Source: a virus
Direction: 5' to 3' (one strand)
DNA length: 12,652 bases
UHGV virus genome: UHGV-0154273
This document shows, one piece after another, positions 1-12,652 of the stretch. The notes beneath the pieces are model-generated. The model worked only from the letters and a program-made list of their open reading frames with translations. It was not told where the DNA came from and did not search any database. The position numbers and the translations under genes are program-made. Every line of letters starts with the position of its first letter. Position 1 is the first letter of the stretch.

Positions 1-72
1 TTTTTTTTCAAGCAGAAGACGGCATACGAGATCGTGATGTGACTGGAGTTCAGACGTGTGCTCTTCCGATCT
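1..72. other. Sequencing adapter contamination: poly-T (1-8) followed by Illumina P7 adapter with 6-nt index and TruSeq read-2 primer site
   Basis: Seen directly: CAAGCAGAAGACGGCATACGAGAT (9-32) + CGTGAT (33-38) + GTGACTGGAGTTCAGACGTGTGCTCTTCCGATCT (39-72), the canonical Illumina indexed adapter. Not biological sequence. Confidence 0.95.
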
Positions 73-834: not shown

Positions 835-860
835 AAAAGGCGCTATAGCGCCTTTCTTTT
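833..860. terminator. Bidirectional intrinsic terminator between convergent integrase and 124-aa gene
   Basis: A-run (833-838), perfect palindromic hairpin GGCGCTATAGCGCC (839-852), T-rich run TTTCTTTT (853-860). Sits exactly between two convergent stop codons. Confidence 0.6.
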
Positions 861-1233
861 AAACATCAAAGATGACATCACCATGATACGCGTTAAACTG
901 CGGATTCCGCATGATGGTGATCACTTGCTGAACTACCCACTTTGCACCGATATCAAGTTCATGCTCTATAGCGCACGGTATAGCAATACCAGATTTCTGA
1001 CACTTGATAGTGAAGGAAAATCCCTCATCTTTGCCTAGAATTGTCTGCAAGTGTTGTCCAATGAAATTTGTAAAAATCACTCTCAACTCAGCTAACGTGA
1101 TTGGAGGTTTATTACGCGGATCATTAAGTCTATCAACAGCAAAATGAAATGACATCTTTAGCTTGGCTCTATCTTCTTCCAAGATATCGTTAATATCTGC
1201 AACTAAATCATCAATCTGCTGTTGAGTTATCAT
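859..1233 (-). CDS. Hypothetical protein, 124 aa; downstream gene of an AT-rich two-gene cassette (possible toxin/effector)
   Basis: ORF with ATGA start/stop overlap with the upstream 69-aa gene. Sampled 60-bp blocks are ~37-42% GC, lower than the rest of the element. No recognisable catalytic motif by eye. Confidence 0.55.
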   Translation of the reverse strand: MITQQQIDDLVADINDILEEDRAKLKMSFHFAVDRLNDPRNKPPITLAELRVIFTNFIGQHLQTILGKDEGFSFTIKCQKSGIAIPCAIEHELDIGAKWVVQQVITIMRNPQFNAYHGDVIFDV

Positions 1234-1439
1234 ATGTGTGCAGCCGTGATCTCAGCTAATTTCTTGTTCAACTCTTCATCGTTTGAAGCTGTGATGGTGC
1301 CTACAAATTCAGTGCGTGATAAAGTACCAGCACGCACATCGAATTCGTAGTTGTCAAACGAATCAACGACGACAAACGCCTTGGTTGCTGGGTTAAAAAA
1401 CGATGCACAATTTTGGTTTGTACGCATATCAAAGTTCAT
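1230..1439 (-). CDS. Hypothetical protein, 69 aa; upstream gene of the AT-rich two-gene cassette (possible antitoxin/partner)
   Basis: Strong SD (AGGAGGA) 4-5 nt before ATG at 1439. 4-bp overlap (ATGA) with the 124-aa gene indicates translational coupling. Confidence 0.6.
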   Translation of the reverse strand: MNFDMRTNQNCASFFNPATKAFVVVDSFDNYEFDVRAGTLSRTEFVGTITASNDEELNKKLAEITAAHI

Positions 1440-1536
1440 ATTATCCTCCTACCCCTTCAAGGGAGATGTAGGAACGAAGTATTCTCAAGTTGAAGCTCAG
1501 TTTGGAGACATATTAGGAAACTGTTTTATGCTCAGC

Positions 1537-1555
1537 CTACGCAATCTACGTCAAT
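1537..1555. promoter_or_regulatory. Tandem imperfect direct repeat CTACG(T)CAAT x2 in the upstream region of the 69/124-aa cassette; candidate operator
   Basis: ctacgcaat (1537-1545) followed by ctacgtcaat (1546-1555), ~100 bp upstream of the cassette start codon on the coding (minus) strand side. Confidence 0.25.
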
Positions 1556-1640
1556 CCGTCAAGAATTGTTTTAAATATAGGCAAGTAACAAGGCAGCCAC
1601 AACAACACATAACCGAATGAAAATAAAAGAAATAATCTCA

Positions 1641-2078
1641 TCACGCATGTTGTCTTGGATAAATAACGCCCAACCCCTTGTATTGTCGGCGGTAGGCAGG
1701 TAGCATGCTTAACATGCTACCTCGTGAGAGTCCGCACAAATTTCCCACATAATAACCACCTTCCGCTGCATTGGCCGAACGATGAACCACAGCGCGCACA
1801 CGTCCAGTTCGGTGACAGTGATCCAATACAGCAGACGCGAGGCGTAGCGGCTTAGCTGTCACCGCGCAGCGTCGGTATTGATAATTCCACAGGAAGACAC
1901 GGACAGCGGCCACATCAGCGCGGCGCAACTCCAGCCGTCCTGAACCATTCAACAGGAAGTGATACACATCATCGAACGCAGCAGAATTTTTAATGCGTTC
2001 CGCTAGCGGCATGTTGCCGAGATATTCCAGATAGCCTCGCATCGCTTTTCTTAGTAGTTGGTCTGTCCGTGTAACCAT
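1641..2078 (-). CDS. Hypothetical protein, 145 aa (last gene of long minus-strand operon)
   Basis: ATG at 2078 preceded by GGAGG SD at 8 nt spacing. Stop TGA 1641-1643. No recognisable domain. Confidence 0.6.
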   Translation of the reverse strand: MVTRTDQLLRKAMRGYLEYLGNMPLAERIKNSAAFDDVYHFLLNGSGRLELRRADVAAVRVFLWNYQYRRCAVTAKPLRLASAVLDHCHRTGRVRAVVHRSANAAEGGYYVGNLCGLSRGSMLSMLPAYRRQYKGLGVIYPRQHA

Positions 2079-2350
2079 GATTCAAAGCCTCCACTGTCAG
2101 ATGCAGCCCGTTTGCAGGCTTCGTATTCTTCGCGCTGGCGTTGGCATACCAGAGCATAAAGCTCGGCGGCCATCGCATTAACACGTTCGTCACTGATACC
2201 ATTGCGGCGCATCAGCCCCAGCAGCTTACGAAATTTAGCTTCAAGCTCAGGCTCTCCGGTATCCATTACCCACTGTTTCAGGTCAGCGAGTGCGCCAGTC
2301 ATTGGTGGCGGCTCGATGTACCGCCACCTTAATTTAATCGTGGTTATCAT
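2051..2350 (-). CDS. Hypothetical protein, ~99 aa (start refined relative to ORF track)
   Basis: ORF track start at 2398 is a TTG. In-frame ATG at 2350-2348 is preceded by AGAGGA SD at ~9 nt and gives MITTIKLRW... Overlaps the upstream gene stop by 17 nt and the downstream gene start by 28 nt. Confidence 0.5.
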   Translation of the reverse strand: MITTIKLRWRYIEPPPMTGALADLKQWVMDTGEPELEAKFRKLLGLMRRNGISDERVNAMAAELYALVCQRQREEYEACKRAASDSGGFESWLHGQTNY

Positions 2351-2759
2351 TTTCTTTATCCTCTCTGTAAGCCGGGTGCATTGCCCGGTATTGCTCAATG
2401 GTCAAACCCTCGCTGGCCGCTGCAAACCGTTCCTTTTGCTTACCCGCCAATCGCAAGGCGCTGTCTCTCCAGCAGAGCAGAAAGAAGATGGTCAGCACCT
2501 GCTTACTCAAGCCATCCAGAAGATCACCAAGCCCTTGCTCCAGAAGACAGGCACGCCATGCAGCGGCGTGCTCAGTCATAGCACCTACTATCGGGACAGG
2601 TGCTCCGAGCATTGTCGCAAGCTGACTCATAACACTGTTAGCATCGCCCGGATGCAGCCGTGGAATAGTCATGCGGCCAGCCTGCGCCAACAGTTCAGCG
2701 TACCGCTGGCGGCGCGGGTCATCATCTGCCAGCGCTCTAATCGGCTTTTCATCAGCCAT
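2334..2759 (-). CDS. Hypothetical protein, 141 aa (speculatively a small-terminase-like packaging factor given its HNH neighbour)
   Basis: ATG at 2759 with GGAGG SD 9 nt upstream. Lies immediately downstream of the HNH endonuclease gene. Function not recognisable from sequence. Confidence 0.55.
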   Translation of the reverse strand: MADEKPIRALADDDPRRQRYAELLAQAGRMTIPRLHPGDANSVMSQLATMLGAPVPIVGAMTEHAAAWRACLLEQGLGDLLDGLSKQVLTIFFLLCWRDSALRLAGKQKERFAAASEGLTIEQYRAMHPAYREDKENDNHD

Positions 2760-2777
2760 TAATGGAACCTCCGAGGA

Positions 2778-3305
2778 TTAGGCAGCCTGCAATAAATCGG
2801 CTGGCGTTGACGGATGGTATCTGGCTTTAGCTTTCAGGTACGCAGCACGCGCCGCCGCTTCGGTAGTGAATAAGCCGAGGTGATGGCGAACACCACCAAC
2901 GCGAATGTAAGCCTCCCATCTGCCAGAGCAGGCATGGTGGCTATAACCCTTGGCTTTGCGGTAATTGTGCTGGTTCTCTTGTGGCGTAACCGTGCGGAGA
3001 TTGATAAGGCGGTTGTCATCGCGTACCGCGTTGATATGGTCGATTTGCATCCCGGCAGGGATACCGTCATTAGCAATGATGAAGGCGACACGGTGGGCGT
3101 ATAGCGCATGAGATTTGCCATTGATGCGGACAGATACGCGCCTATATCCGGCGCTGTCCGTTACCGTGTCGGCCAGTTCCCCGGCTTTAGCGTAAATCCG
3201 CTTGTTGGCTCCGATCCGGTCTACTGCATGGAACAGGCGGCCAGTCTTCGCATCGTACCGAAACAAAGAGCGCAACAGCTCCGGGGCATAAGCATCAATA
3301 TTCAT
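2778..3305 (-). CDS. HNH endonuclease with C-terminal AP2-like DNA-binding domain (phage homing/packaging-associated type)
   Basis: HNH_3-type motif HRVAFIIANDGIPAGMQIDHINAVRDDNRLINLRTVTPQENQHN (His, Asn and His spacing typical of HNH). C-terminal GYSHHACSGRWEAYIRVGGVRHHLGLFTTEAAARAAY resembles the AP2 domain commonly fused to phage HNH nucleases. Confidence 0.85.
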   Translation of the reverse strand: MNIDAYAPELLRSLFRYDAKTGRLFHAVDRIGANKRIYAKAGELADTVTDSAGYRRVSVRINGKSHALYAHRVAFIIANDGIPAGMQIDHINAVRDDNRLINLRTVTPQENQHNYRKAKGYSHHACSGRWEAYIRVGGVRHHLGLFTTEAAARAAYLKAKARYHPSTPADLLQAA

Positions 3306-3321
3306 GGCTCGGCCCCTTTTG

Positions 3322-4317
3322 TTATGCAGCTTGTCGGAAATTTATAACGCAGTCAGGGCGGCGCAGCCCAACATTGAACAGGCGATATGAGTCCATCACC
3401 ATTGTCATTTCGCGTTCATCATCCCACTGGCGATTGATAACGCTCTGCGCTTCGACTGTCACAAGTACAGACGCAGGCCGGAACAGCGTCGCCCGTGTCA
3501 GCGCTTCCCCTGCGGTCACATCATAATCAGCGCCCAGTTCATGCGCGGTAATGGCTTCCTGCGGGTAACTGTTCAGCTCAATAACTCGCACCCCAGCGAC
3601 ATAGCCAACGCGACGCCATGCGTAATCATTGCCACTATCCCGGCTGTAACGGACGTTCATCAACTTCTTATGTTCCATCAGGATGCTGAACCAAGCTGGG
3701 TCGATGAGAAGGCACAGCTCCGCCACCGGAATATCTTTTTCAGTTAGGAATCGATTAACAGCAGCTTTAATAGCGTGAACCAGTTCGTTAGCCGCATCCT
3801 CTTCGCTCCCCGTTGTCAGGTCGAGCGAGACAACATTATCCGTCAGCGGGTTAAACGTTGGTTGCAACGTAGGCGGCGGTACAAAGTCAGTCGCTTTGAT
3901 TAGCTGGATAGTGTGCGCTTCGTCGTAGAACTTTGCATGGGCTGTCCCCATGTTGCGGCTCAGCTCTGCGCGAAAGGTGGGCGCTGTCCAGTCGTCTTGA
4001 TAGTCAATCGGGATGCGGATATAGCTCAGCGTATCCACAGAGATAATCAGCTTGTCCGACTTAACGGCGGTAGGCTCCAGCGATTGCCCTGCGGTTCTGC
4101 CCTTCACCTCCAGATCTCCGCTCAGGCGGTCTACACGATACTGATTACTGTTTTTCAGCGGCTTGTATGTGCTCAGCCCCTCGGCGAGAAACACGCTCTT
4201 TGCCTCAAGGCGGGTCTGAACGTCCCGGTCATACGCTTCAATGTGAATGTCGTTGTCAGCATCTACACCGCCCCAGTGCGGGCGGAATTGGTCAGGGGTA
4301 TAAACATTGTCAGTCAT
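3322..4317 (-). CDS. Conserved-looking 331-aa protein of unknown function; possibly structural (capsid-like), unverified
   Basis: Long clean ORF with GGGAG SD 8 nt upstream of ATG at 4317. No nucleotide-binding or nuclease motif seen. Sits between a Q/N-rich scaffold-like protein and the HNH endonuclease, a context typical of head/packaging modules. Product assignment is inference only. Confidence 0.7.
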   Translation of the reverse strand: MTDNVYTPDQFRPHWGGVDADNDIHIEAYDRDVQTRLEAKSVFLAEGLSTYKPLKNSNQYRVDRLSGDLEVKGRTAGQSLEPTAVKSDKLIISVDTLSYIRIPIDYQDDWTAPTFRAELSRNMGTAHAKFYDEAHTIQLIKATDFVPPPTLQPTFNPLTDNVVSLDLTTGSEEDAANELVHAIKAAVNRFLTEKDIPVAELCLLIDPAWFSILMEHKKLMNVRYSRDSGNDYAWRRVGYVAGVRVIELNSYPQEAITAHELGADYDVTAGEALTRATLFRPASVLVTVEAQSVINRQWDDEREMTMVMDSYRLFNVGLRRPDCVINFRQAA

Positions 4318-4385
4318 AGAAATAGCTCCCGCGCCAGCGTTAGCCAGCGCGATTTATGGAAAAGGGGAAAAGAGAATGGGATGAA

Positions 4386-4733
4386 TCAGGCAGCAGCTTT
4401 TTCAGCCGCGATCTCAAGAATCAGGCCGATAAGCGCGAAGGCAGGCCAATGGGGATTAAGCTCGTGCAGGTGCGCAACGCCCCCACCAAAAGCATCGCGC
4501 ATATCAGCACCAGAGATGCCCGCGCGTTTGGCCGCCCGGCGCAGCAATCGCAGCTCGGAGCCGGGAACATACGCCGAGGGCATACGCACGCCGAAGCGTG
4601 AGGCGAGCCGCCGCCAGTGCGCTTCGTCAGCAAAGTCCTGCTTAAGCTGGCTGGCGTTGGCTTTCCAGTGTTCAATCCTCGCGCTACGGGCAGCCCTAGC
4701 CGCTGCCACGTTTTCAGGTGTCAGTAAGGTCAT
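4386..4733 (-). CDS. Hypothetical protein, 115 aa, Arg/Ala-rich with hydrophobic C-terminus
   Basis: ORF in operon orientation. Weak SD. C-terminal WPAFALIGLILEIAAEKAAA could be a membrane or amphipathic segment. Confidence 0.5.
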   Translation of the reverse strand: MTLLTPENVAAARAARSARIEHWKANASQLKQDFADEAHWRRLASRFGVRMPSAYVPGSELRLLRRAAKRAGISGADMRDAFGGGVAHLHELNPHWPAFALIGLILEIAAEKAAA

Positions 4734-4812
4734 TGTCAGATCTCAATGCAAAGTGGGTTTATGTGTGGTGTTTGAGAGGTAATTTCGCGTTTTACAGGTG
4801 CAGGTATACGAA

Positions 4813-4832
4813 TGTACATCTGGCGATGTACA
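4813..4832. promoter_or_regulatory. Inverted repeat TGTACAT-N6-ATGTACA in intergenic gap between the 228-aa and 115-aa genes
   Basis: Perfect 7-bp arms (4813-4819 and 4826-4832) with a 6-nt spacer. No U-run follows on the coding strand, so a binding site or attenuator-like hairpin is more likely than a terminator. Confidence 0.3.
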
Positions 4833-4892
4833 ACGCGATTCAGGCTCTAAAACGTAAGGTTAAGACGTGGGGAAGACAGGACAGGCGATTGC

Positions 4893-5579
4893 TTAACGGC
4901 CAGCGCGTTTGCCAGCGGAGCGCTGCGCAACCAGAGCGCGGTATTGATCGTCGTACTGGCGATGGCCGGGGCCATACCCTGATTGCTGCGCCCACTGCGA
5001 AAGCTGATCATACGCTGCAATAAACTCAGCATGAGACATACCAACAGGTTGCGAGGCAGGCTGGCCGTATGGGTTCCCCTGTGATGGGACATAACCAGTC
5101 GCAGTGCCTGCGACCATACGCTCTTGCAGATAATGAACCGCCCGCTGCATCTGCGCAGGGTCGCCAGACATAACCATCCGTTCAAGGGTTGATTGCGTCC
5201 CGGCGTCGAGCGTGCCAGCGTACTGCAACATCGCGTCAACTGTCCCCTGCCCTAGCTGGCTTTCGACAGACTGGTGAAACTGCCCCATCAGCCCATGAAG
5301 TTCAGGAGTCAACTCAACAGTAGTGCCATCCTGTAATTGCAGCGTGTCGCCCACTTGCGCAGCAACATCAATCTGCTGGTCTTGCTGGTTGGCAAAGTTA
5401 CTTTCGTTCCAGCTTTGATTAATGTTCGCTGGCTGCGTTTTCAGGAAATCAGCATCAGGTGTTGTCTGGTCGAATCTGCTAGCGCCGTTGTCAGCGCCTA
5501 CAGGTGCGGCCATGTACGGCGATTGCTGCGGCGCAGTATCAGCGCCCGAAAGGTACGGATTAACATTCTGGTCAGCCAT
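4893..5579 (-). CDS. Q/N/G-rich low-complexity acidic protein, 228 aa (scaffold-, decoration- or mimic-like; function unknown)
   Basis: ATG at 5579 with AAGAGG SD ~10 nt upstream. Composition strongly biased to Gln, Asn, Gly, Asp and Thr, with predicted disorder. Immediately follows the stop of the upstream HTH gene. Confidence 0.65.
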   Translation of the reverse strand: MADQNVNPYLSGADTAPQQSPYMAAPVGADNGASRFDQTTPDADFLKTQPANINQSWNESNFANQQDQQIDVAAQVGDTLQLQDGTTVELTPELHGLMGQFHQSVESQLGQGTVDAMLQYAGTLDAGTQSTLERMVMSGDPAQMQRAVHYLQERMVAGTATGYVPSQGNPYGQPASQPVGMSHAEFIAAYDQLSQWAQQSGYGPGHRQYDDQYRALVAQRSAGKRAGR

Positions 5580-5581
5580 GA

Positions 5582-5821
5582 TTATGCAACCTCTTGTGAT
5601 GTAACTCGGCGATGTGCCAGTTCAAGTAAAAGCATGTGCGCGTGTACGCATCGGGCAGGAATCATCTTCTGTCCGTGGTACGCTTTGCCGAGATCTTGTC
5701 TGTCGATCTGGTACACATGAGCCAAATCGATTTGACGAAGATTCAAGGCTTCGGCAATGAATTTCAGTTGTTGCCCGCAATCAGCCGCGCGGCGTGGCTC
5801 CATTAAAATAATGGTGCTCAT
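5582..5821 (-). CDS. Putative small HTH (XRE/Cro-like) DNA-binding protein, ~79 aa (start refined)
   Basis: ORF track start at 5863 is a TTG. ATG at 5821 has GAGGA SD at 7-8 nt. Segment LKFIAEALNLRQIDLAHVYQIDRQDLGKAYHG has a helix-turn-helix-like pattern. Confidence 0.5.
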   Translation of the reverse strand: MSTIILMEPRRAADCGQQLKFIAEALNLRQIDLAHVYQIDRQDLGKAYHGQKMIPARCVHAHMLLLELAHRRVTSQEVA

Positions 5822-5835
5822 GAAATAATCCTCAG

Positions 5836-6069
5836 TTAGATAAGGCCATGACGACGCAACCAACGTCGCTCGCCAACGGAGCCACGCGGTCGCTGCCTTG
5901 GATTCTGGTTTGGTGCTTGGCCGGGATCAGTTCGCCCTTCCCCGGACAGGTTCTGTGTCAGCACATCCCAGCCGCGTGATTCAAACGGGGCGTATCCCTC
6001 GCGCTGTTCGTCAAGGTTCACATAGAGATCAGGGTTAACGGCAGGGTGCAGCGGTTCGTTCTCTGCCAT
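5836..6069 (-). CDS. Hypothetical protein, ~77 aa
   Basis: ATG at 6069 overlaps the upstream stop (TGATG). The track's extra N-terminal Met comes from a GTG at 6072. Confidence 0.45.
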   Translation of the reverse strand: MAENEPLHPAVNPDLYVNLDEQREGYAPFESRGWDVLTQNLSGEGRTDPGQAPNQNPRQRPRGSVGERRWLRRHGLI

Positions 6070-6632
6070 CACTTAGCCCCGAATCGCGTGTTAACGTCTT
6101 CCAAAATATCTGGATAAGACCACTTGCTACGCATCAGGCGCAGGACATGAGCAACAGCCTCAGCAGAGATCCCAAGCTCCCCAGCGATCTCGGTTTGTTT
6201 CCAGCCGAAGCGCTCCAGCTTGTGCATCTGATCGAGGTCGGCGCTCAACAGGCGGCGCATCGTCTGCGGTTTCTCAGGCTTTGCTTTAACTGCTTTCGGC
6301 ATCGGGTGGGTGTGGGCGTTGCTAAAGCGGGAATGGACGATAGCCAGCACAGTTTCAGGCCGAATTAGAAAATCGCGTGCAATGGCATGTGCAGTGTCCC
6401 AGTGGCCGCGCCCCGGTTTCCAGCGCTTACGGATGGCGTTGTATTCCTCCAGCGTAATAGCGGCTTCATCCCTCCACTGGTTGGCAAGGTCGGCTACATA
6501 AACGCCGCGCAGCACCGCGTCAACGTCCTCCGGGTCAAATCCGGTTGCAGCGACTACCTCTTCCACATTGCGAAGGTCGCGCTTAACGAGGGTATTGATG
6601 CGCTGGATATCGGTCAGGCTCAGAACTGTCAT
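6069..6632 (-). CDS. HTH-domain protein, 187 aa (C-terminal sigma-70 region-4/LuxR-like helix-turn-helix; regulator or small-terminase-like)
   Basis: C-terminal DLDQMHKLERFGWKQTEIAGELGISAEAVAHVLRLMR matches an HTH pattern. ATG at 6632 overlaps the stop of the upstream small ORF (ATGA). Confidence 0.6.
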   Translation of the reverse strand: MTVLSLTDIQRINTLVKRDLRNVEEVVAATGFDPEDVDAVLRGVYVADLANQWRDEAAITLEEYNAIRKRWKPGRGHWDTAHAIARDFLIRPETVLAIVHSRFSNAHTHPMPKAVKAKPEKPQTMRRLLSADLDQMHKLERFGWKQTEIAGELGISAEAVAHVLRLMRSKWSYPDILEDVNTRFGAK

Positions 6633-6805
6633 AAGGTAAAGTCTCCATCGAAATTGATTTGATCTTCAATCAGCGTGCGAATGAGTAGCAGGCTGGAAGC
6701 GGTGTGTGTTCCCGTCTTGCGGGCGCTTTCATACATGGCTCGTGCTGCGCTCTGATAGTTCGGCGGCAGGGTTGCAAACCATGCTCTAAACTCTGCGGGT
6801 GTCAT
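6629..6805 (-). CDS. Small ORF, 58 aa, not in the supplied ORF track (below its length cutoff)
   Basis: Translated by hand: MTPAEFRAWFATLPPNYQSAARAMYESARKTGTHTASSLLLIRTLIEDQINFDGDFTL. Its ATG (6805-6803) overlaps the TGA of the upstream 68-aa gene and its TGA overlaps the ATG of the 187-aa gene, fitting the coupled operon pattern. Confidence 0.4.
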   Translation of the reverse strand: MTPAEFRAWFATLPPNYQSAARAMYESARKTGTHTASSLLLIRTLIEDQINFDGDFTL

Positions 6806-7008
6806 TGCTCGTCATCCTCAAATACACGGTTAAATGACGTGTCCGGCGCTTCTACGGCATTGGCCTTAAGGAAGTTGACCGCACTGGATAACTCCGCTGC
6901 GGCCATGCGCGACTCACCAGCCTTGTCTTCCTCAAGGCGGCGGATTAGCGCCCCAAGAAGCAAGCCTTTCATTCGCCACGTTTCATTTTCAAACTCGGTT
7001 TTAGTCAT
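6802..7008 (-). CDS. Hypothetical protein, 68 aa
   Basis: ATG at 7008 lies within ATGACTAA, which also contains the stop of the upstream 145-aa gene. Confidence 0.5.
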   Translation of the reverse strand: MTKTEFENETWRMKGLLLGALIRRLEEDKAGESRMAAAELSSAVNFLKANAVEAPDTSFNRVFEDDEQ

Positions 7009-7438
7009 GCGGATTAACTCCTGTCAGCCCCATTACGCGCAGGTACTGGATTACTTCGGCGTGTACTGGTTTTGGTAAAAAGAGGCGACGCTGCACAGAT
7101 TGAAATATCTCGTCGCGCGTCTTGTTGGCAGGGTGAACAGTCCCATTAAAGACCTCACGAGCCATGCGATAGGTCGGCCAAAGACGAGCGCCATCCTCCC
7201 GGCGTCGGAATCTATTCAGCACAGCGGCCAGACATTCCCAAGGCTCACAGTGATTGAGCAGGCAATACCGCTGTAGCGGCGTACCAGCTTGGCGCAAGAT
7301 GGCCGCACGATTAAGAGTCTGGCGGTGGCGCTCAGCTAACCCATCGAAGGAATATCCGTTCAGGGCGAAGGCAAGTTGTGCGGTGACGAGCGCATCCGCA
7401 CGCGTAGCACGACGCTGCGCATGTTCGGTAACAGGCAT
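7001..7438 (-). CDS. Hypothetical protein, 145 aa
   Basis: ATG at 7438 with TGGAG SD ~8 nt upstream. Follows the helicase stop after a 38-nt gap. Confidence 0.6.
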   Translation of the reverse strand: MPVTEHAQRRATRADALVTAQLAFALNGYSFDGLAERHRQTLNRAAILRQAGTPLQRYCLLNHCEPWECLAAVLNRFRRREDGARLWPTYRMAREVFNGTVHPANKTRDEIFQSVQRRLFLPKPVHAEVIQYLRVMGLTGVNPHD

Positions 7439-7476
7439 ATGGATTAACTCCAGAGAATGAGGGGGAGCCTTTCGAC

Positions 7477-9321
7477 TCAGAGGTATTTAGCGATGTACTG
7501 CCAGTTGCAGTTTTCAGGGCGGTAGAAGTAAGCAAGCTCATCAGGCGCAGCATCCAGCGCCAGCGATGACCACAGCAGAAACGCGCGGGCAGGTTGACCA
7601 TCGCGCCCGGCTCGTCCAATCATCTGAATGAGGTCAGGCAGGTCATCAGGAATATATGTAACGATGACGTTGCGAATGTCTGGCACATCAGCCCCCAGCC
7701 CGAAGGCTTTAGTAGCAATCAGAATTGCGCCCGGCGTAGTGGCAAACCACTCAGCGTTTGCGTGGCGTTCTTCGTTACTCAAGTGCATCGTCTTCGAGTG
7801 ATATGGGCGCGCCCGGTCGCCTAAGAGTTTCAGGTACGCCCGCAACGTCTTAAGGTCATTGACGAGAATGAGCGTCTTCTCTTCTTTCGGCAGAGCCTCG
7901 ACCAGACCAATAGCCGCTCGGAAACGTTCGCGGCACTGTCTGACTGTCGTCAACTGGATATTTTCGCGAGCAACATCAGCACGGAATGTTACGTAATCAC
8001 CACGGCAGCCAAGCGACGCCATTAAACTGCGCTCATTTTCGCGTAGCAGCGTAGCCGTAAATACGCAGCGTTGAGCCGAAAGAAAGGCATGTTGTAGCGA
8101 GTGCTGCATGGCCTCGTAAGCGGGTCGGAAATCCCAGTCTTTAACCGTGTGCGCTTCGTCGATGATAAAACGATCAACGCCGTAAGCCATCAGCGCCGCG
8201 AAGACCTGACTCGACAGAACAAGATGCTCAGGTGAAACGACAGCAACACGGAACGCCCCGGCAGCCAGCCCCGCGAGTTGTTGAGCGTTGCGGTGCCTCG
8301 GCAACTTGTCACCGAATGCCACAGCGTGAACGCCAGCATCCCGCAACTGGCGGAGAATCTGGCGCTTTAGGGTATTAGTGGGAACCACGATTACAGACAG
8401 GCCAACGCCAGCGCGGGACTCATAAATCAATGGATAAGCGAAGGCGGCGGTCTTGCCATAACCCGTAGGCAGAACGGCCAGCACATCACTACCACGGGAG
8501 AAGATCGCATCAGCAACAGACAACTGCCCCGGCCTCCACTCCAGCCCATCGGGTGGCAACAGGCTAACGCGTGCGTTTCGGTCACAGCGAACCAGCGGGC
8601 GAAACTCATAAGAGGCTGTATTCAGTGACGGCACAGACGGCGACACTGCCAAGCCGTTTGGGTCACAATGATGATTTGTACTGTTAAATTTATCCTCGGT
8701 AGGTTTCGACTCTCCACACCACAATTGACGAAACTCCGCTGAGTCCCCGTAGCGTTTGAAATCTGAATTGCGCATCGCTTCCAGTTTATTCATGCCCCTG
8801 TTGATGCGGTGTATAGTCTTCTCATCACAAATCAGGAACTCGCGGCAGGCTTTGAGAAAAGCATTCTGCCCGGTTGTCGATGCCGAAACGGCGTGCTCGC
8901 GCGGTTTCAATGCGGCATCATCTACGCGAACACCGGGAAAATCAGGCGGCAGCGGGTCAGCATACCGAGCAGGCTTCTTGTTGAGCCACATTTCTATCTC
9001 AGCGCGTCGGCAATGAATTGCGTCACCGGGCTGGATGACTTGCCGCAACCCCGTGTCAGAGCGCTGTTTTTGCTTCTTCGGTTGAACACCATGCAGCGCT
9101 CGCCATTCCCGCAGGGTCATAGCGGAGCCATCAGCATTGTAATAAAACTCTTCGGTCTTCGTGTTGTATGCCGCCTTAACGGGTTTATGCTTTATCGGGC
9201 ATATCTTGGAACGCCGAATAACAATCCCGTCAGCGACCATTTGCTGTACATCTGCGTTTGCGGTATTGAGCGGGTCAGCGTCGGCAGCCTGCGCAAGCAA
9301 ACGGCGTAGGTTCGTTGGCAT
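7477..9321 (-). CDS. RecQ-family superfamily-2 DNA helicase (DEAH box) with an unrecognised ~280-aa N-terminal domain; likely replication helicase of the element
   Basis: Helicase motifs read directly: RPGQ (Q-motif-like), LPTGYGKTAAF (Walker A/motif I), SPEHL, IIDEAHTVKDWDFRPAY (DEAH motif II followed by the RecQ-typical aromatic-rich loop), FTATL (motif III), MIGRAGRDGQ (motif VI). No RQC/HRDC tail. ATG at 9321 with GGAGA SD 9 nt upstream. Confidence 0.9.
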   Translation of the reverse strand: MPTNLRRLLAQAADADPLNTANADVQQMVADGIVIRRSKICPIKHKPVKAAYNTKTEEFYYNADGSAMTLREWRALHGVQPKKQKQRSDTGLRQVIQPGDAIHCRRAEIEMWLNKKPARYADPLPPDFPGVRVDDAALKPREHAVSASTTGQNAFLKACREFLICDEKTIHRINRGMNKLEAMRNSDFKRYGDSAEFRQLWCGESKPTEDKFNSTNHHCDPNGLAVSPSVPSLNTASYEFRPLVRCDRNARVSLLPPDGLEWRPGQLSVADAIFSRGSDVLAVLPTGYGKTAAFAYPLIYESRAGVGLSVIVVPTNTLKRQILRQLRDAGVHAVAFGDKLPRHRNAQQLAGLAAGAFRVAVVSPEHLVLSSQVFAALMAYGVDRFIIDEAHTVKDWDFRPAYEAMQHSLQHAFLSAQRCVFTATLLRENERSLMASLGCRGDYVTFRADVARENIQLTTVRQCRERFRAAIGLVEALPKEEKTLILVNDLKTLRAYLKLLGDRARPYHSKTMHLSNEERHANAEWFATTPGAILIATKAFGLGADVPDIRNVIVTYIPDDLPDLIQMIGRAGRDGQPARAFLLWSSLALDAAPDELAYFYRPENCNWQYIAKYL

Positions 9322-9436
9322 GGTGAAATCTCCAAAATTAAGGTGAGTTTAGAACGAGGCGCAGGACGGCAGCGCCGAGCTGCCCGTAGAGAGAATTTCA
9401 TGTCAGCAGTGACGTTGAATGTTCTGTCCCTCTTTA

Positions 9437-9462
9437 GTAGTGACTTTCATGTAGGTCACTAC
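9437..9462. promoter_or_regulatory. Perfect 8-bp inverted repeat GTAGTGAC-N10-GTCACTAC upstream of the helicase operon; candidate operator
   Basis: Arms at 9437-9444 and 9455-9462, ~115-140 bp upstream of the helicase start codon on the coding-strand side. Confidence 0.35.
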
Positions 9463-9510
9463 GTATGCACAAGCGAGTGGTGTTCGTTTTGCCACAGTAG
9501 AAACTCTAAT

Positions 9511-9529
9511 TTGATTATTTTTTAATCAA
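9511..9529. promoter_or_regulatory. AT-rich inverted repeat TTGATTA-TTTTT-TAATCAA in helicase-recombinase intergenic region
   Basis: 7-bp arms (9511-9517 and 9523-9529) with a 5-nt T spacer, within an AT-rich stretch that may hold the operon promoter or an origin-like region. Confidence 0.25.
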
Positions 9530-10211
9530 CACCTTTGTAAGCCTTGCCCTGTCTGACTTGATGAATGATTTGCTGATAACTTTCAGTAGGTTTGTTGGGA
9601 TGCTGGGATGTAAGGGGTTATAAGCGGCATTGTGAGTACCATATCCCAATATAGTACCGTACCACTACTCTATCCCCGCCGCGTTGACTGCCTGGCAAGC
9701 ACGGTTGCGTGGAGGGCCGAGCATCACAGCGGGCGAAGGCCGGGAATGAGCCAAAGGCGATGGAGCGGGCTGGAGCATAGCGAGAAGCGCAGCCAGTGTA
9801 GAGCGAAAAGCGATAACACTGATTAGGAGAAGGGATGAAAGGGAAGAACCCTTTTCTGTACATGTATTTTAAATGCAACTTTAAAGGTAAAACGAAGGTG
9901 TTGCCCTGCTTCAAATCTAGCTGAGTGATTGGACAACACAGCCTTTGATCCCTTCCCCTGCCCCATCCCTCGAATTGTTCAGTGATAAATCACATTCACA
10001 ATCTGATCTTGATACTCATCGTCTGGCACGGCTAAAGCCCCGCCATCTCTTCATATCAAGAGCCGCAAGTAATACGGAAATACATTATAAATCATACCAT
10101 TACGAGATTAGGCATAACATAAATATCTGATATCAATACAAAAGCTGTAGGCCATCCATCACCCACAGCCCAGTAACGGCCAGTGCTGGCATCTCATCAG
10201 ACTGTAGGTCA

Positions 10212-10844
10212 TCACTCTGTAACGCTGGCGGACAGCTCACGTTTGATACGGTAGAACGTTGCCCGGCTTATCCCGGCAGCTTTCATGATGTGCTCTGGTT
10301 TATTCCCAACGGTAAGCATAGCGCGGACAGTTTCACGGGCGCTCTCATCCTTAGACTTCCCGTTATATTTCCCCTCGGCTTTGGCACGCTTGATGCCCTG
10401 CGCTTGGCGTGCTCTGCGTGTCTCGTAGTCCACTCGTGCCATCGTAGCGAGGATATCAATCAGCATTGCGTTAACAGCTCTCAGGATGCCCTCTGTAAGC
10501 TCTGACGCCGTATCGTTCAGTAGTTGCCATGAGGTTGGCAGGTCAACGGCAACGATCACCAGTCCCTTATCCTGAATCCTCTGTTTCAGTGTCGCCCATT
10601 CCTTTTGCGTAAGGCGGCTTAGCCTGTCGATGCTCTCGACAAGCAAGACCTCTCCGGCCTGCGCATCATCCAGCAAGCGCATTAGTTCAGGACGCGCCAG
10701 CCTCGCACCGCTGGCGTTCTCGATGTACTCCGCCCGTACAGGCCAGCCCCGATCACTGGCGAACTCTCGCAGCAAGCCCAGCGCCCGGTCTGCGTGTTGC
10801 TCTGATGTACTGGCGCGGCAATAGATAAGCGCATTGTGTGCCAT
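10212..10844 (-). CDS. Serine recombinase of the resolvase/invertase family, 210 aa
   Basis: N-terminal catalytic region with YCRASTSEQ (Ser nucleophile motif), RPELMRLL and LLVESIDRLSR, which parallel Hin/resolvase motifs. C-terminal HTH (KAAGISRATFYRIKREL). ATG at 10844 with G-rich SD. Confidence 0.85.
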   Translation of the reverse strand: MAHNALIYCRASTSEQHADRALGLLREFASDRGWPVRAEYIENASGARLARPELMRLLDDAQAGEVLLVESIDRLSRLTQKEWATLKQRIQDKGLVIVAVDLPTSWQLLNDTASELTEGILRAVNAMLIDILATMARVDYETRRARQAQGIKRAKAEGKYNGKSKDESARETVRAMLTVGNKPEHIMKAAGISRATFYRIKRELSASVTE

Positions 10845-10970: not shown

Positions 10971-11561
10971 CCCGAAAGAGACTGGCACCGCCCCACAGCA
11001 GCATTCCCCGGCACATCCAGCGAACACAGCGTAGAGCGCACGCAGCAGATCAGCACGGCACCGCCACGATCTCGAAATCACAAAGGCATTGAATCACACA
11101 TTGGAAGCACAGAACGCAGCACAGAGCGATACAGATCGTTTTAGAGGGATGTACAGATACACAGTGAAAGGCAGATGATCGCAGCACTCGTCCCACACGG
11201 TTATTCAGCAACAGCAATCAGCCAGCATCTCGCTCAGTAGCACGCTCCTGTAATGCTTGTCTCGGATGAGCAAAATCTTAGGGTTTCTCAGCGACCCCTG
11301 ACGCGCGGGCACGCACATGCACACGGGGGCGCGGGCGAGCTATAGAGTTGAGGGAGGGGCAACCATAAGCGTGCAATTTTCAAGCTGGGACTTTTAACAG
11401 TGGGATTGTGGGGCTGTTTTGCATTCAGAGAGTGAGGCTGTGGGGGAGCCCTCCTTGAACCAAATAATGCGAAACTGATCATTCTTCCACGTAGCTTAGG
11501 CCACTTTGCATGGATAATTAGCACCAAACACAGCAGCCAGTTTAAGAGAAATGCGCGACAT

Positions 11562-11780
11562 CTACCGTCTGCGTTTACCCCAGCGCTGCATTATGGCTCT
11601 GTGTGCTTCATCCGCTGACCATTCAATAGGTACAACAACGTGTACAGGCATTTCATCGCCAGAGGGGGCACCACGTAAATGGACTCTATACCCTAGTTTA
11701 TTAAGTTCTACCTCGGACATCGGTGATATAACCTCGCCGCTATGGCTGCCGCCAACAAACTCAGCTTTAAAATCCAACAT
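11562..11780 (-). CDS. Hypothetical protein, 72 aa
   Basis: ORF whose ATG (11780-11778) is preceded, 1 nt away, by a 9-nt homopolymeric G tract on the coding strand. The plus-strand ORF 11551-11874 covers the same DNA; the minus strand is preferred because of operon orientation but this is uncertain. Confidence 0.4.
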   Translation of the reverse strand: MLDFKAEFVGGSHSGEVISPMSEVELNKLGYRVHLRGAPSGDEMPVHVVVPIEWSADEAHRAIMQRWGKRRR

Positions 11781-11781
11781 G

Positions 11782-11790
11782 CCCCCCCCC
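11782..11790. repeat. Homopolymeric tract C9 (G9 on coding strand) abutting the start codon of the 72-aa gene
   Basis: Nine consecutive C at 11782-11790. Potential slipped-strand phase-variation site or assembly-error hotspot. Confidence 0.9.
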
Positions 11791-11823
11791 TACACACTAA
11801 CAAGAATCATTGAAGGTGTATCA

Positions 11824-11841
11824 CCCAGCAACTACGCTGGG
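11824..11841. promoter_or_regulatory. Hairpin-forming inverted repeat CCCAGC-N6-GCTGGG between the 153-aa and 72-aa genes
   Basis: 6-bp arms (11824-11829 and 11836-11841). No immediate U-run, so terminator function is uncertain. Confidence 0.25.
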
Positions 11842-11870
11842 CAGAACATCACCTCGGACTATCAATCAAC

Positions 11871-12329
11871 TTAGTATCGCTTTGTGTCTCGTAGTATTAC
11901 AGACAGTAACCACCACCATTGGCGTTTGATCCAACAAACATCACTGAACATCTTGCCGTCAGATGTTTTGATATAAACCCCGCCACGATGATGCACTTTG
12001 TTGTGATGAGCCTTATTTATGAATGGCACGTTCAAGACCATTTCGTCTCGTGCTTTCAATCTTTTTGGCAGCATCGGTGTGATCATGTTCTCGTCCGAAT
12101 ATTCGTCGGATAACATTCTAAGGCGTCCACTGGCTGTTACCACACCGGCTGCACTCAACGTTACATCGTGTGCGCTTATGTTCGAAACGTATATCCTGTC
12201 CTCGTGCTGATCACATCCGAGATAAAGCCTTAGCGATGTTCTGGATTTTAGTAATTGAAATACGGACAAAGCAAAACCCGCCCACGCCGCGATCCCTGTC
12301 CAGTTATCTGTTTGGGTGATCCAAGTCAT
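11871..12329 (-). CDS. Predicted membrane-anchored protein, ~152 aa (N-terminal transmembrane helix), in AT-rich cassette
   Basis: ATG at 12329 overlaps the stop of the upstream 75-aa gene (TGATG); the track's start at 12332 is a TTG. N-terminal hydrophobic segment WTGIAAWAGFALSVFQLL. Sampled blocks ~37-40% GC. Confidence 0.6.
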   Translation of the reverse strand: MTWITQTDNWTGIAAWAGFALSVFQLLKSRTSLRLYLGCDQHEDRIYVSNISAHDVTLSAAGVVTASGRLRMLSDEYSDENMITPMLPKRLKARDEMVLNVPFINKAHHNKVHHRGGVYIKTSDGKMFSDVCWIKRQWWWLLSVILRDTKRY

Positions 12330-12556
12330 CAAGGCTGCATCCCCTTCGACATAAGATACTTAACGATCCCTTCTCGTTGCCTATTACTCAGCTGAAAACA
12401 TTTGTCTAGTTGAGATAAAACCTGCTCGACATCATCTGCCAAGATGGCACTAGCTGCACGAGCGGGGAGATCTCCCTGAATTTTGATAGTGAAATACCCT
12501 GAAGATATTGATAGCTTCAAAAAACAACCTGCTGAGAACTCGTAACTCTCGCTCAT
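12329..12556 (-). CDS. Hypothetical protein, 75 aa, first gene of right-end AT-rich cassette
   Basis: ATG at 12556 with AGAGG SD 7 nt upstream. Its promoter would have to lie beyond the compositional junction at ~12557-12571. Confidence 0.5.
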   Translation of the reverse strand: MSESYEFSAGCFLKLSISSGYFTIKIQGDLPARAASAILADDVEQVLSQLDKCFQLSNRQREGIVKYLMSKGMQP

Positions 12557-12571
12557 AACCGCCTCTGTTGA

Positions 12572-12652
12572 CAGTTCGGCGAGCGCATTGCCGACGGCCG
12601 CACGCGTGTGTACCTGGTCAACACCGGCTGGATCGGCGGCGGCTACGGCGTG
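12572..12652 (+). pseudogene. pckA: Internal fragment of an ATP-dependent phosphoenolpyruvate carboxykinase (PckA)-like gene from a high-GC genome; truncated on both sides
   Basis: In-frame translation QFGERIADGRTRVYLVNTGWIGGGYGV contains the YLVNTGW-GG-YG signature of the PckA kinase region. An in-frame TGA lies immediately upstream (12569-12571). The fragment is ~68% GC with G/C-rich third positions, unlike the rest of the window. Confidence 0.45.

What the first reader, a model, noticed from the sequence alone, without database searches (positions are those of the whole stretch)
11562..12556. Right-end AT-rich cassette: small protein + membrane-anchored protein + small protein, candidate abortive-infection/defence module
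Three minus-strand genes (75 aa, ~152 aa with an N-terminal transmembrane helix, 72 aa) form a compositionally distinct block (~40% GC) at the edge of the element. The first two are coupled by a TGATG overlap. A hairpin (11824-11841) and a G9 tract separate the third. Small membrane effectors paired with small soluble partners are typical of abortive-infection and TA systems, and none of the three has recognisable motifs.
Basis: partly seen in the sequence, partly recalled or inferred. Interest (0 to 1): 0.7.

Follow-up and report, generated by a model that had tools for sequence, protein, structure and literature searches.

The report
Orphan membrane-protein gene pair, satellite cargo
A rare two-gene module, a 75-aa soluble protein translationally coupled to a 152-aa membrane-anchored Ig-fold protein, sits with an optional third small gene in the variable cargo end of an E. 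coli phage-satellite-like island next to known anti-phage genes; it is a plausible but untested new phage-exclusion module, not a three-gene unit and probably not a toxin-antitoxin pair.

Summary
The three minus-strand ORFs, the TGATG overlap, the hairpin and the G9 tract are all present. GC is 46%, not about 40%, and the last 76 nt of the window are foreign GC-rich DNA.

All three are real genes without any Pfam, NCBIfam, PHROG, PADLOC or PDB match, but they are not one unit:
- **ORF2 (152 aa)** is the core. It defines a small unnamed family of 145-180 aa proteins: a hydrophobic N-terminal helix (predicted N-out/C-in), an Ig-like beta-sandwich (AF2 pLDDT 80) and an Arg/Trp-rich C-terminal helix.
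- **ORF1 (75 aa)** is an Enterobacterales-only partner. It was always followed by ORF2 with overlapping stop and start codons, yet it is absent or decayed in 8 of 20 ORF2 contexts, which argues against an antitoxin role.
- **ORF3 (72 aa)** accompanies ORF2 in only 3 of 20 contexts.

ORF2-family genes lie at ends of satellite-like islands. Elsewhere they sit directly downstream of RAZR/PD-T7-4 or of an AbiTii protein, or beside the portal gene of a P2-like prophage, where P2's known hotspot lies. ORF2 occurs in 14 of 5,426 complete E. coli genomes.

Best reading: mobile-element cargo, probably a membrane-acting phage-exclusion module. This rests on context and architecture only.

The parts
12329..12556 (-). 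ORF1: 75-aa soluble orphan protein and lineage-specific partner of ORF2 (includes the stop codon).
   Evidence: ORF list. There are 23 homologue clusters, all Enterobacterales and mostly exactly 75 aa, with no Pfam hit. dN/dS is about 0.2-0.5. ORF2 always follows immediately downstream.
12562..12565 (-). GAGG Shine-Dalgarno-like motif 6-9 nt upstream of the ORF1 ATG.
   Evidence: Read directly from the sequence. It is conserved in L001 and L028.
12327..12331 (-). TGATG junction where the ORF1 stop and the ORF2 start overlap by one base (translational coupling).
   Evidence: Homologues have a 4-nt overlap of stop and start.
11871..12329 (-). ORF2: 152-aa protein and core of the module, the founding member here of an unnamed family.
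   Evidence: RefSeq WP_000219901.1 'hypothetical protein'. There are 28 close clusters and 25 distant representatives. Codon-position substitutions are 2/3/17. AF2 gives pLDDT 80.4.
12246..12299 (-). ORF2 residues 11-28: N-terminal hydrophobic helix, the predicted membrane anchor (N-out/C-in).
   Evidence: Hydropathy and flank charges across 31 family members: K+R averages 0.5 before the helix and 2.3 after it. AF2 places a helix at residues 3-28.
11943..12233 (-). ORF2 residues 33-129: Ig-like beta-sandwich, predicted cytoplasmic, with near-invariant N50, S52, H54, R94 and invariant G62, G68.
11877..11933 (-). ORF2 residues 133-151: basic/aromatic amphipathic C-terminal helix (KRQWWWLLSVILRDTKR).
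   Evidence: AF2 helix at 133-151. Hydrophobic moment reaches 0.57. The RRxWWW motif is conserved family-wide and R136 is invariant.
11781..11870 (-). 90-nt spacer between ORF2 and ORF3, containing the 6-bp hairpin (11824-11841) and the G9 tract (11782-11790).
   Evidence: No terminator was detected. Fold z-score is -1.4. The G-tract is G9 in E. coli copies and G6 in Kosakonia.
11562..11780 (-). ORF3: 72-aa basic-tailed orphan protein, an optional downstream gene that is not part of the conserved pair.
   Evidence: Present only in L001/L028, L010 (94%) and L040 (42% identity, 71 aa). No hits in phages, plasmids, Pfam or PDB.
12577..12652 (.). Foreign GC-rich end of the window (reads GERIADGRTRVYLVNTGWIGGGYGV). 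It replaces the native promoter and the divergent gene and is not part of the module.
   Evidence: Similarity to E. coli stops at 12576. Alignment with L001 and L028. Translation.

Best explanation
ORF1-ORF2 is a two-gene accessory ('moron') operon. It is carried in the variable, tRNA-proximal cargo end of a roughly 13.7-kb capsid-encoding, phage-satellite-like island. ORF3 is a separate, optional small gene lying downstream on the same strand.

**ORF2.** It is a single-pass inner-membrane protein. A short acidic N-terminus faces the periplasm. An Ig-like beta-sandwich and an Arg/Trp-rich amphipathic C-terminal helix face the cytoplasm.

**Most likely role.** I think phage exclusion of the abortive-infection type is the most likely function:
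1. The cytoplasmic sandwich binds a phage-derived or infection-derived cue.
2. The protein then oligomerises through its membrane helix.
3. The basic/aromatic helix perturbs the inner membrane.

**ORF1.** It is a lineage-specific cytoplasmic modulator or specificity partner, made in fixed ratio by translational coupling. It is not an antitoxin.

**Shown:** gene reality, coupling, family architecture, cargo location and defence neighbours.
**Inferred:** topology, the defence function and every mechanistic step.
For: **Real, selected genes**
-.

**Strict ORF1-to-ORF2 coupling**
- Seen from the ORF2 side.
- Seen from the ORF1 side, which is unbiased with respect to ORF2: E. coli P0056 with 24 contigs read, and Brenneria P0072.

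**Host element**
- It encodes integrase, a major head protein (phrog_267, 2.8e-67), a scaffold-like protein, an HNH endonuclease, a helicase and an invertase.
- The module lies between the invertase and tRNA-Gly.

**Modular swapping exactly at the ORF2 start**
- Homology between the E. coli and Kosakonia loci begins at the first codon of ORF2.
- Upstream is ORF1 plus the 259-aa gene in one locus and a 182-aa Rx4H-motif protein in the other.

**Defence neighbourhood of family members**
- RAZR/PD-T7-4 lies directly upstream in Ewingella (PADLOC 2.2e-94). RAZR is a proven abortive-infection HEPN RNase (PMC13017515).
- An AbiTii protein lies 45 nt upstream of a distant homologue (PADLOC 5e-43).
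- A homologue abuts the portal gene of a P2-like prophage. In P2 the defence hotspot lies between gpA and portal gpQ (PMC9122126).
- KAP-NTPase and PLD neighbours occur in L017.

**Rarity**
- ORF2 is in 14 of 5,426 complete E. coli genomes.

**Architecture**
- AF2 pLDDT 80.4.
- Positive-inside charge bias across 31 homologues.
- Conserved RRxWWW helix.
- Transmembrane proteins in hotspot systems are generally regarded as suicide effectors (PMC9122126).
Against: - No sequence or profile link to any known defence protein. PADLOC, Pfam, NCBIfam and PHROGs are all empty.
- The fold is a generic Ig-like sandwich and says nothing about activity.
- Defence association rests on a handful of loci. No statistical enrichment was computed.
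- RAZR works alone, so adjacency may simply reflect a shared hotspot.
- ORF2 could be a hotspot-flanking backbone gene.
- No homologue was found in 50,697 phage genomes.
- Topology was inferred from charge bias, not from a dedicated predictor or an experiment.
- No structure or interaction prediction was possible for ORF1 or ORF3.
Confidence: 0.4

Rival explanations
1. Superinfection exclusion rather than abortive infection. ORF2 sits in the inner membrane and blocks DNA entry or a membrane step of incoming phage without killing the cell, in the manner of T4 Imm, P22 SieA or lactococcal Sie2009. ORF1 assists or regulates it.
For: - Architecture is a single N-terminal anchor plus a ~120-aa domain.
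- It is carried by prophage and satellite elements.
- ORF2 can stand alone, as many Sie genes do (own knowledge).
Against: - The charge bias predicts a cytoplasmic domain, whereas injection blockers of the Sie2009/Ltp type expose their domain outside (own knowledge).
- No Pfam superinfection-immunity match.
Confidence: 0.2
2. ORF2 is a backbone or housekeeping gene of the mobile element that merely flanks a cargo hotspot. Examples would be a membrane tether or regulator used in the satellite's own life cycle, helper interference, or lysis timing. The true swappable cargo would then be what lies upstream: ORF1 plus the 259-aa gene, the 182-aa protein, or RAZR.
For: - The recombination breakpoint is exactly at the ORF2 start, and the block ORF2-ORF3-downstream is conserved at 96.5% between E. 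coli and Kosakonia.
- The upstream content varies while ORF2 stays at 71-97% identity.
- ORF1 and the 259-aa gene co-occur in 9 of 12 ORF1 contexts.
Against: - The region downstream of ORF2 is also variable. ORF3 is replaced by a 230-aa gene in E2348/69, and downstream genes differ in other loci.
- ORF2-family genes occur in unrelated element types: a P2-like prophage, a Pseudomonas conjugative plasmid, and an integrase islet with ORF2 as the sole passenger.
- No PHROG or holin match and no endolysin nearby.
- The 259-aa gene occurs on 126 plasmids without ORF1 or ORF2.
Confidence: 0.2
3. A type II toxin-antitoxin or addiction module. ORF2 is a membrane toxin, ORF1 is its small upstream antitoxin, and the pair stabilises the island.
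For: - Small upstream gene translationally coupled to a larger downstream one.
- ORF1 diverges faster than ORF2 (37-58% against 71-81% identity), as antitoxins often do (own knowledge).
- ORF1 was never seen without ORF2.
Against: - Intact ORF2 persists without ORF1 in 8 of 20 distinct contexts, including one with an ORF1 remnant (L031).
- No distant ORF2 homologue has an ORF1-like gene.
- No match to any TA family.
Confidence: 0.1
4. No phage-related function. The genes are neutral or otherwise adaptive hitch-hiking cargo, such as an envelope-stress or surface-related protein that happens to ride on mobile elements.
For: - No functional homology of any kind.
- The Ig-like fold is used in countless contexts.
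Against: - Strong purifying selection.
- Repeated placement beside Abi genes and in a phage hotspot.
- Very low prevalence, typical of conflict genes.
Confidence: 0.1

Closest known systems
[quoted passage not shown] 2022, PMC9122126)
   Same: - Small, rare gene sets that swap between conserved flanks near an end of a phage or satellite.
- They often include transmembrane proteins with no recognisable domains.
- One ORF2 homologue sits next to the portal gene of a P2-like prophage; the P2 hotspot lies between gpA and portal gpQ.
   Different: - The host element here is not P4-like. It encodes its own major head protein, a helicase and an invertase.
- None of the three proteins matches any PADLOC model.
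- No activity has been shown.
Membrane effectors of abortive-infection systems with an N-terminal TM segment plus a small beta-rich domain (for example CBASS Cap15; own knowledge)
   Same: - Short protein with N-terminal membrane helix or helices followed by a compact all-beta domain.
- Such domains could sense a signal and drive oligomerisation.
   Different: - No cyclase or other signal-producing gene is adjacent.
- ORF2 has one TM helix rather than two, an Ig-like sandwich rather than a beta-barrel, and an extra Arg/Trp helix.
- No HMM match.
AbiT (AbiTi + AbiTii) and AbiTii-HEPN proteins (PMC3710099, PMC13064643)
   Same: - A distant ORF2 homologue lies 45 nt downstream of an AbiTii-domain protein on the same strand.
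- This resembles a two-gene Abi layout.
   Different: - The window has no AbiTii gene.
- ORF2 does not match PADLOC AbiTi models.
- AbiTi is described as endoribonuclease-like, not a TM plus Ig-fold protein.
RAZR / PD-T7-4 (PMC13017515)
   Same: It is the immediate upstream neighbour of ORF2 in Ewingella, in the position occupied by ORF1 in the window.
   Different: - RAZR is a self-sufficient zinc-finger HEPN RNase.
- It is unrelated in sequence to ORF1, ORF2 and ORF3.
Archaeal type IV pilins and FlaF/FlaG (PDB 8fk7_A, 6w8u_A, 5tug_A, 4p94_A)
   Same: - 'Lollipop' architecture of a hydrophobic N-terminal helix plus an Ig-like sandwich.
   Different: - 14-17% identity and TM-score about 0.45.
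- No prepilin-peptidase signal: the leader is acidic and there is no G/[FM]xxxE motif (by inspection).
- ORF2 has an extra C-terminal helix and a predicted cytoplasmic domain.
- No pilus genes are nearby.
Membrane-anchored superinfection-exclusion proteins (T4 Imm, P22 SieA, lactococcal Sie2009; own knowledge)
   Same: - Small membrane proteins encoded by prophages or mobile elements.
- They are often stand-alone.
   Different: - No sequence or Pfam relationship.
- The predicted orientation places the ORF2 domain in the cytoplasm.

Membership tests
Type II toxin-antitoxin module | Bicistronic operon with a small gene tightly coupled to its partner. | tested here: met
   TGATG overlap. Homologues have a 4-nt overlap of stop and start.
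Type II toxin-antitoxin module | The toxin gene does not persist intact without its antitoxin. | tested here: not met
   Intact ORF2 without ORF1 in 8 of 20 contexts, including an ORF1 remnant in L031.
Type II toxin-antitoxin module | Homology to a known toxin or antitoxin family. | tested here: not met
   No Pfam, NCBIfam or PADLOC hit.
Type II toxin-antitoxin module | Toxicity of ORF2 that is neutralised by ORF1. | not testable with these tools
   Needs expression experiments.
Known anti-phage defence systems (PADLOC-DB 2.0) | Profile match of at least one component. | tested here: not met
   No hit for ORF1, ORF2, ORF3 or the divergent 259-aa gene at E <= 0.1-1.
Mobile-element defence-hotspot cargo | Lies in a segment whose content varies between otherwise conserved flanks of related elements. 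| tested here: met
   Between the invertase and the tRNA, related islands carry different gene sets. A breakpoint falls at the ORF2 start.
Mobile-element defence-hotspot cargo | Known defence genes occupy the same segment in relatives. | tested here: met
   RAZR/PD-T7-4, AbiTii, and a homologue next to the portal gene of a P2-like prophage. Only a few loci were seen and no enrichment statistic was computed.
Mobile-element defence-hotspot cargo | Confers phage resistance when cloned. | not testable with these tools
   Needs plaque assays.
Holin/antiholin or other lysis cassette | Match to holin, spanin or endolysin families, or adjacency to an endolysin. | tested here: not met
   No PHROG or Pfam hit. 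The flanking genes are an invertase and, in the native locus, the 259-aa hypothetical gene, and the larger window ORFs are head, HNH, helicase and similar.
Type IV pilin-like proteins | Hydrophobic N-terminal helix plus a beta-sandwich globular domain. | tested here: met
Type IV pilin-like proteins | Class III signal peptide or prepilin-peptidase cleavage motif, and pilus assembly genes nearby. | tested here: not met
   The N-terminus is acidic without the G/[FM]xxxE signature (alignment; motif from own knowledge). No pilus genes appear in any locus.
AbiT (AbiTi/AbiTii) | Presence of AbiTii and AbiTi homologues. | tested here: not met
   No AbiTi or AbiTii match for the window proteins. AbiTii is present only next to a distant ORF2 homologue.
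Bitopic inner-membrane protein (N-out/C-in) | One hydrophobic segment of about 18 or more residues, with positive charges on the cytoplasmic side. | tested here: inconclusive
   Family median KD17 is 1.65 and this copy scores 1.54. K+R averages 0.5 before the helix and 2.3 after it. No dedicated predictor or experiment was available.

The most novel reading that the evidence does not exclude
ORF2 founds a new class of membrane-anchored Ig-fold phage-sensing effectors. These would work alone or be plugged downstream of interchangeable partners (ORF1, HEPN-type Abi RNases such as RAZR, AbiTii-HEPN, or the 182-aa Rx4H protein). The result would be a modular 'sensor/nuclease plus membrane arm' defence architecture that moves between satellites, P2-like prophages and plasmids.
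Probability: 0.15. Interest if true: 0.7.

Novelty: new variant of a known kind. Interest (0 to 1): 0.4.

Why it matters
- If ORF1-ORF2 protects against phage, it adds an unrecognised protein family with no Pfam domain to the bacterial immune repertoire.
- It would also mark the tRNA-proximal end of a capsid-encoding satellite family as a defence hotspot. That would give a new place to mine for systems, as the P2 and P4 hotspots did.
- In several loci ORF2-family genes lie directly behind proven or probable HEPN-type Abi genes. This could point to a membrane arm cooperating with RNase-based abortive infection.
- If it does not protect, it remains one of many orphan cargo genes and the finding is ordinary.

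Tried and rejected
**Profile and sequence searches**
- Pfam, NCBIfam, PHROGs and PADLOC scans of all three proteins gave nothing.
- A Pfam scan of 31 ORF2-family members and of 8 ORF1 homologues gave nothing consistent.
- PDB sequence searches found nothing, with the A2 profile for ORF2 and single sequences for ORF1, ORF3 and the 259-aa gene.
- tblastn of ORF2 and ORF3 against 50,697 phage genomes found no match.
- Against plasmids, the only ORF2 match was one distant Pseudomonas copy.

**Structure**
- The first AF2 run on close homologues was unusable (pLDDT 50).
- The second run, with distant homologues, worked.
- BFVD fold search returned only weak hits to uncharacterised proteins.
- The afdb50 library was unavailable.

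**Other searches**
- The search for related loci with the diverse alignment failed because no stretch was conserved enough.
- Rfam found no RNA family in the window.
- The literature search for the RefSeq accessions returned nothing.

**Ideas rejected**
- Three-gene operon unit: ORF3 is rarely present.
- Holin/antiholin: no lysis genes or matches.
- Pilin: no signal motif.
- The 259-aa gene, the 182-aa protein, RAZR and the AbiTii protein as mutual homologues: pairwise BLASTP was insignificant.
- The hairpin as a terminator: no T-run and z = -1.4.

**Unresolved**
- Codon-position analysis could not settle ORF3. There were only four substitutions and all were non-synonymous. The 42% homologue settled that it is a real gene.
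Full report
**1. What is in the sequence**

The minus strand of 11562-12556 carries three ORFs.

| ORF | Coordinates | Length |
|---|---|---|
| ORF1 | 12329-12556 | 75 aa |
| ORF2 | 11871-12329 | 152 aa from the ATG |
| ORF3 | 11562-11780 | 72 aa |

- The ORF1 stop and the ORF2 ATG share one base (TGATG). A GAGG lies 6-9 nt before the ORF1 ATG.
- A 90-nt spacer separates ORF2 from ORF3. It holds a 6-bp/6-nt-loop hairpin (11824-11841) and a G9 run that ends one base before the ORF3 ATG.
- The hairpin has no T-tail and was not called a terminator. The spacer folds no better than shuffles (z = -1.4).
- GC is 46.4%, against 52.1% for the window.

**2. Where the window comes from**

- Window 11200-12576 is 99.9% identical to E. 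coli NZ_LR536431.
- There the region belongs to an island of about 13.7 kb next to tRNA-Gly. PHROGs identifies an integrase, an EndoVII-like nuclease, an HNH endonuclease, a major head protein (phrog_267, 2.8e-67), a scaffold-like protein, a DEAD/DEAH helicase and a DNA invertase. I call it a capsid-encoding, satellite-like element. No terminase or portal was seen.
- The native gene order is invertase, ORF3, ORF2, ORF1, a divergent 259-aa hypothetical gene ('NB259'), then tRNA-Gly.
- RefSeq annotates only ORF2 (WP_000219901.1, hypothetical).
- The last 76 nt of the window do not match that locus or a near-identical metagenome contig (L028). They read as a GC-rich coding fragment, GERIADGRTRVYLVNTGWIGGGYGV.
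- The window therefore ends in a chimeric junction 16-20 nt upstream of ORF1. It lacks the native promoter region and NB259.

**3. Are the ORFs genes?**

- **ORF2.** Against the 97%-identical Kosakonia copy, substitutions fall 2/3/17 on codon positions 1/2/3. There are 28 clusters of close homologues at 65-93% identity; the named ones are all Enterobacterales.
- **ORF1.** Homologues are gapless and exactly 75 aa in at least seven genera. dN/dS is roughly 0.2-0.5 for pairs where dS could be estimated.
- **ORF3.** The comparison with Kosakonia is uninformative: four changes, all non-synonymous. A 71-aa, 42%-identical homologue occupies the same position in L040, so it is a real protein.

**4. 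Is it a three-gene cassette?**

No. Dereplicating all loci recovered gives about 20 distinct contexts for close ORF2 homologues.

| Feature | Contexts (of about 20) |
|---|---|
| ORF1 directly upstream of ORF2 | 12 |
| ORF1 plus divergent NB259 | 9 of those 12 |
| ORF1 without NB259 (two Serratia-type loci, Brenneria) | 3 |
| ORF2 without an intact ORF1 | 8 |
| ORF3 present | 3 |

The eight contexts without an intact ORF1 are:
- **E2348/69 and Kosakonia:** a 182-aa protein with a conserved RLRN[IL]TVH (Rx4H) motif lies upstream.
- **Ewingella:** RAZR/PD-T7-4 lies upstream.
- **L017:** a DUF6685 protein (313 aa) and a KAP-family NTPase lie upstream.
- **L035:** a lipoprotein-like ORF lies upstream and a gene with an NPPY motif (methyltransferase-like; motif recognised from own knowledge, not profile-tested) lies downstream.
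- **L030:** ORF2 lies essentially alone between a host gene and an integrase.
- **L041:** no ORF1 is detectable.
- **L031:** only the C-terminal remnant of ORF1 survives in front of an intact ORF2.

Searching from the ORF1 side removes the ascertainment bias. E. coli P0056 (24 contigs read) and Brenneria P0072 both have ORF2 immediately downstream with a 4-nt overlap. ORF1 therefore depends on ORF2, but ORF2 does not depend on ORF1.

NB259 is independent. It occurs on 126 plasmids, and the two plasmid loci examined carry neither ORF1 nor ORF2.

Homology between the E. coli and Kosakonia loci starts exactly at the ORF2 start codon and runs downstream through ORF3 at 96.5%. The upstream partner has been swapped by recombination at that point.

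**5. What ORF2 is**

- A full HMMER scan of 1.84 billion representatives found 25 proteins at E <= 1e-3. Most are 142-179 aa with the same layout.
- No member hits a Pfam family convincingly, and the family profile hits no PDB sequence.
- With these sequences in the alignment, AF2 gives pLDDT 80.4 and pTM 0.67. The model has a helix at 3-28, an eight-stranded sandwich over 33-129 and a helix at 133-151.
- There is no prepilin signal.
- The N-terminal helix is only moderately hydrophobic in this copy but clearly so in distant members (KD17 up to 3.0, family median 1.65).
- Across 31 members, K+R averages 0.5 before the helix and 2.3 after it. By the positive-inside rule this puts the sandwich and the C-terminal helix in the cytoplasm.
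- The C-terminal helix (RRxWWWLL...) is basic, aromatic and amphipathic. This is typical of interfacial membrane-binding segments (own knowledge).
- G62, G68 and R136 are invariant; N50, S52, H54, R94 and G125 are conserved in at least 90% of members. N50, S52 and H54 alternate along a predicted strand, so they would face the same side.

**6. Context of the family**

- Close members sit at the ends of related integrative islands (a resolvase or invertase, a 145-aa gene, and DUF6945/HTH_36 genes), next to tRNA or host genes.
- One neighbour is RAZR/PD-T7-4 (PADLOC 2.2e-94). It is an experimentally proven, self-sufficient abortive-infection HEPN RNase (PMC13017515).
- A distant homologue lies 45 nt downstream of an AbiTii-domain protein (PADLOC 5e-43). 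AbiTii domains are often fused to HEPN domains (PMC3710099).
- Another distant homologue abuts the portal gene of a P2-like prophage. In P2 the cos-proximal defence hotspot lies between gpA and portal gpQ (PMC9122126).
- A further copy is on a Pseudomonas conjugative plasmid.
- ORF2 is present in 14 of 5,426 complete E. coli genomes.

**7. Interpretation**

- The evidence establishes a conserved ORF1-ORF2 pair, in which ORF2 can also occur alone, as rare mobile-element cargo in defence-rich neighbourhoods.
- It does not establish function.
- I favour a phage-exclusion role with ORF2 acting at the inner membrane and ORF1 as a lineage-specific modulator (confidence 0.4).
- The toxin-antitoxin model is disfavoured because ORF2 persists without ORF1.
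- A lysis role is unsupported.
- 'ORF2 as a hotspot flank or satellite backbone gene' and 'superinfection exclusion' remain live rivals.
- ORF3 is a separate optional gene with no terminator-like site between it and ORF2, so read-through transcription is plausible but untested. Its G-tract differs in length between relatives (G9 against G6), which could affect its expression.

**8. Limits**

- No dedicated TM predictor was available.
- The AFDB fold library was unavailable.
- Defence association is anecdotal (a handful of loci), not statistical.
- The HEPN status of the 182-aa neighbour rests on a motif only.

Noticed in passing
window 12577-12652: The last 76 nt are GC-rich and read in the + frame as GERIADGRTRVYLVNTGWIGGGYGV, which looks like an ATP-dependent PEP carboxykinase motif (own knowledge). 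E. coli L001 and metagenome contig L028 instead carry an AT-rich promoter region there. The window end appears to be a chimeric or assembly junction.
   Followed up: partly
window 1-10844 (L001 3107-13645): The host element is an island of about 13.7 kb beside tRNA-Gly. It encodes an integrase, an EndoVII-like nuclease, an HNH endonuclease, a major head protein (phrog_267), a scaffold-like protein, a DEAD/DEAH helicase and a DNA invertase, but no terminase or portal was seen. It looks like a capsid-encoding satellite that does not fit the P4 or classical PICI layouts.
   Followed up: partly
window 9322-10211: This is an 890-nt non-coding spacer between the helicase and the invertase. Positions 9653-10211 are conserved at 88-90% in 59 E. 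coli genomes and are unannotated. The window carries about 554 nt more here than the otherwise near-identical L001. It could be an origin or a regulatory region.
   Followed up: partly
window 11782-11790; L010 ~6538-6543: The homopolymeric G-tract immediately before the ORF3 start codon is G9 in the E. coli copies and G6 in Kosakonia. This may be a slippage-prone tract that modulates ORF3 translation.
   Followed up: partly
L001 15502-16281 (outside the window): A divergent, acidic 259-aa hypothetical gene (WP_023063078.1) accompanies ORF1-ORF2 in 9 contexts. It also occurs on 126 plasmids, and the two plasmid loci examined carry neither ORF1 nor ORF2. It has no Pfam or PADLOC match.
   Followed up: partly
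L002 9535-10083; L010 5368-5916; L031 5293-5832: A 182-aa protein (WP_000851053.1) takes the place of ORF1 in E2348/69 and Kosakonia. It keeps an RLRN[IL]TVH (Rx4H) motif reminiscent of HEPN RNases, but it has no profile hit.
   Followed up: partly
L031 about 6200-7000: A TolA-C-terminal-like ORF (judged by eye) and a decayed C-terminal remnant of ORF1 (...SRSHLKSKGMQY*) lie directly upstream of an intact ORF2.
   Followed up: no
L002 8998-9450 (E. coli E2348/69, NC_011601.1): An intact ORF2 homologue (94% identical) is present but not annotated in the RefSeq record of this reference EPEC strain.
   Followed up: no
window 11243-11390: About 150 nt downstream of ORF3 is conserved at 90-94% in roughly 100 E. 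coli genomes that lack the cassette, and it is unannotated. It is probably backbone or non-coding sequence of related islands.
   Followed up: no
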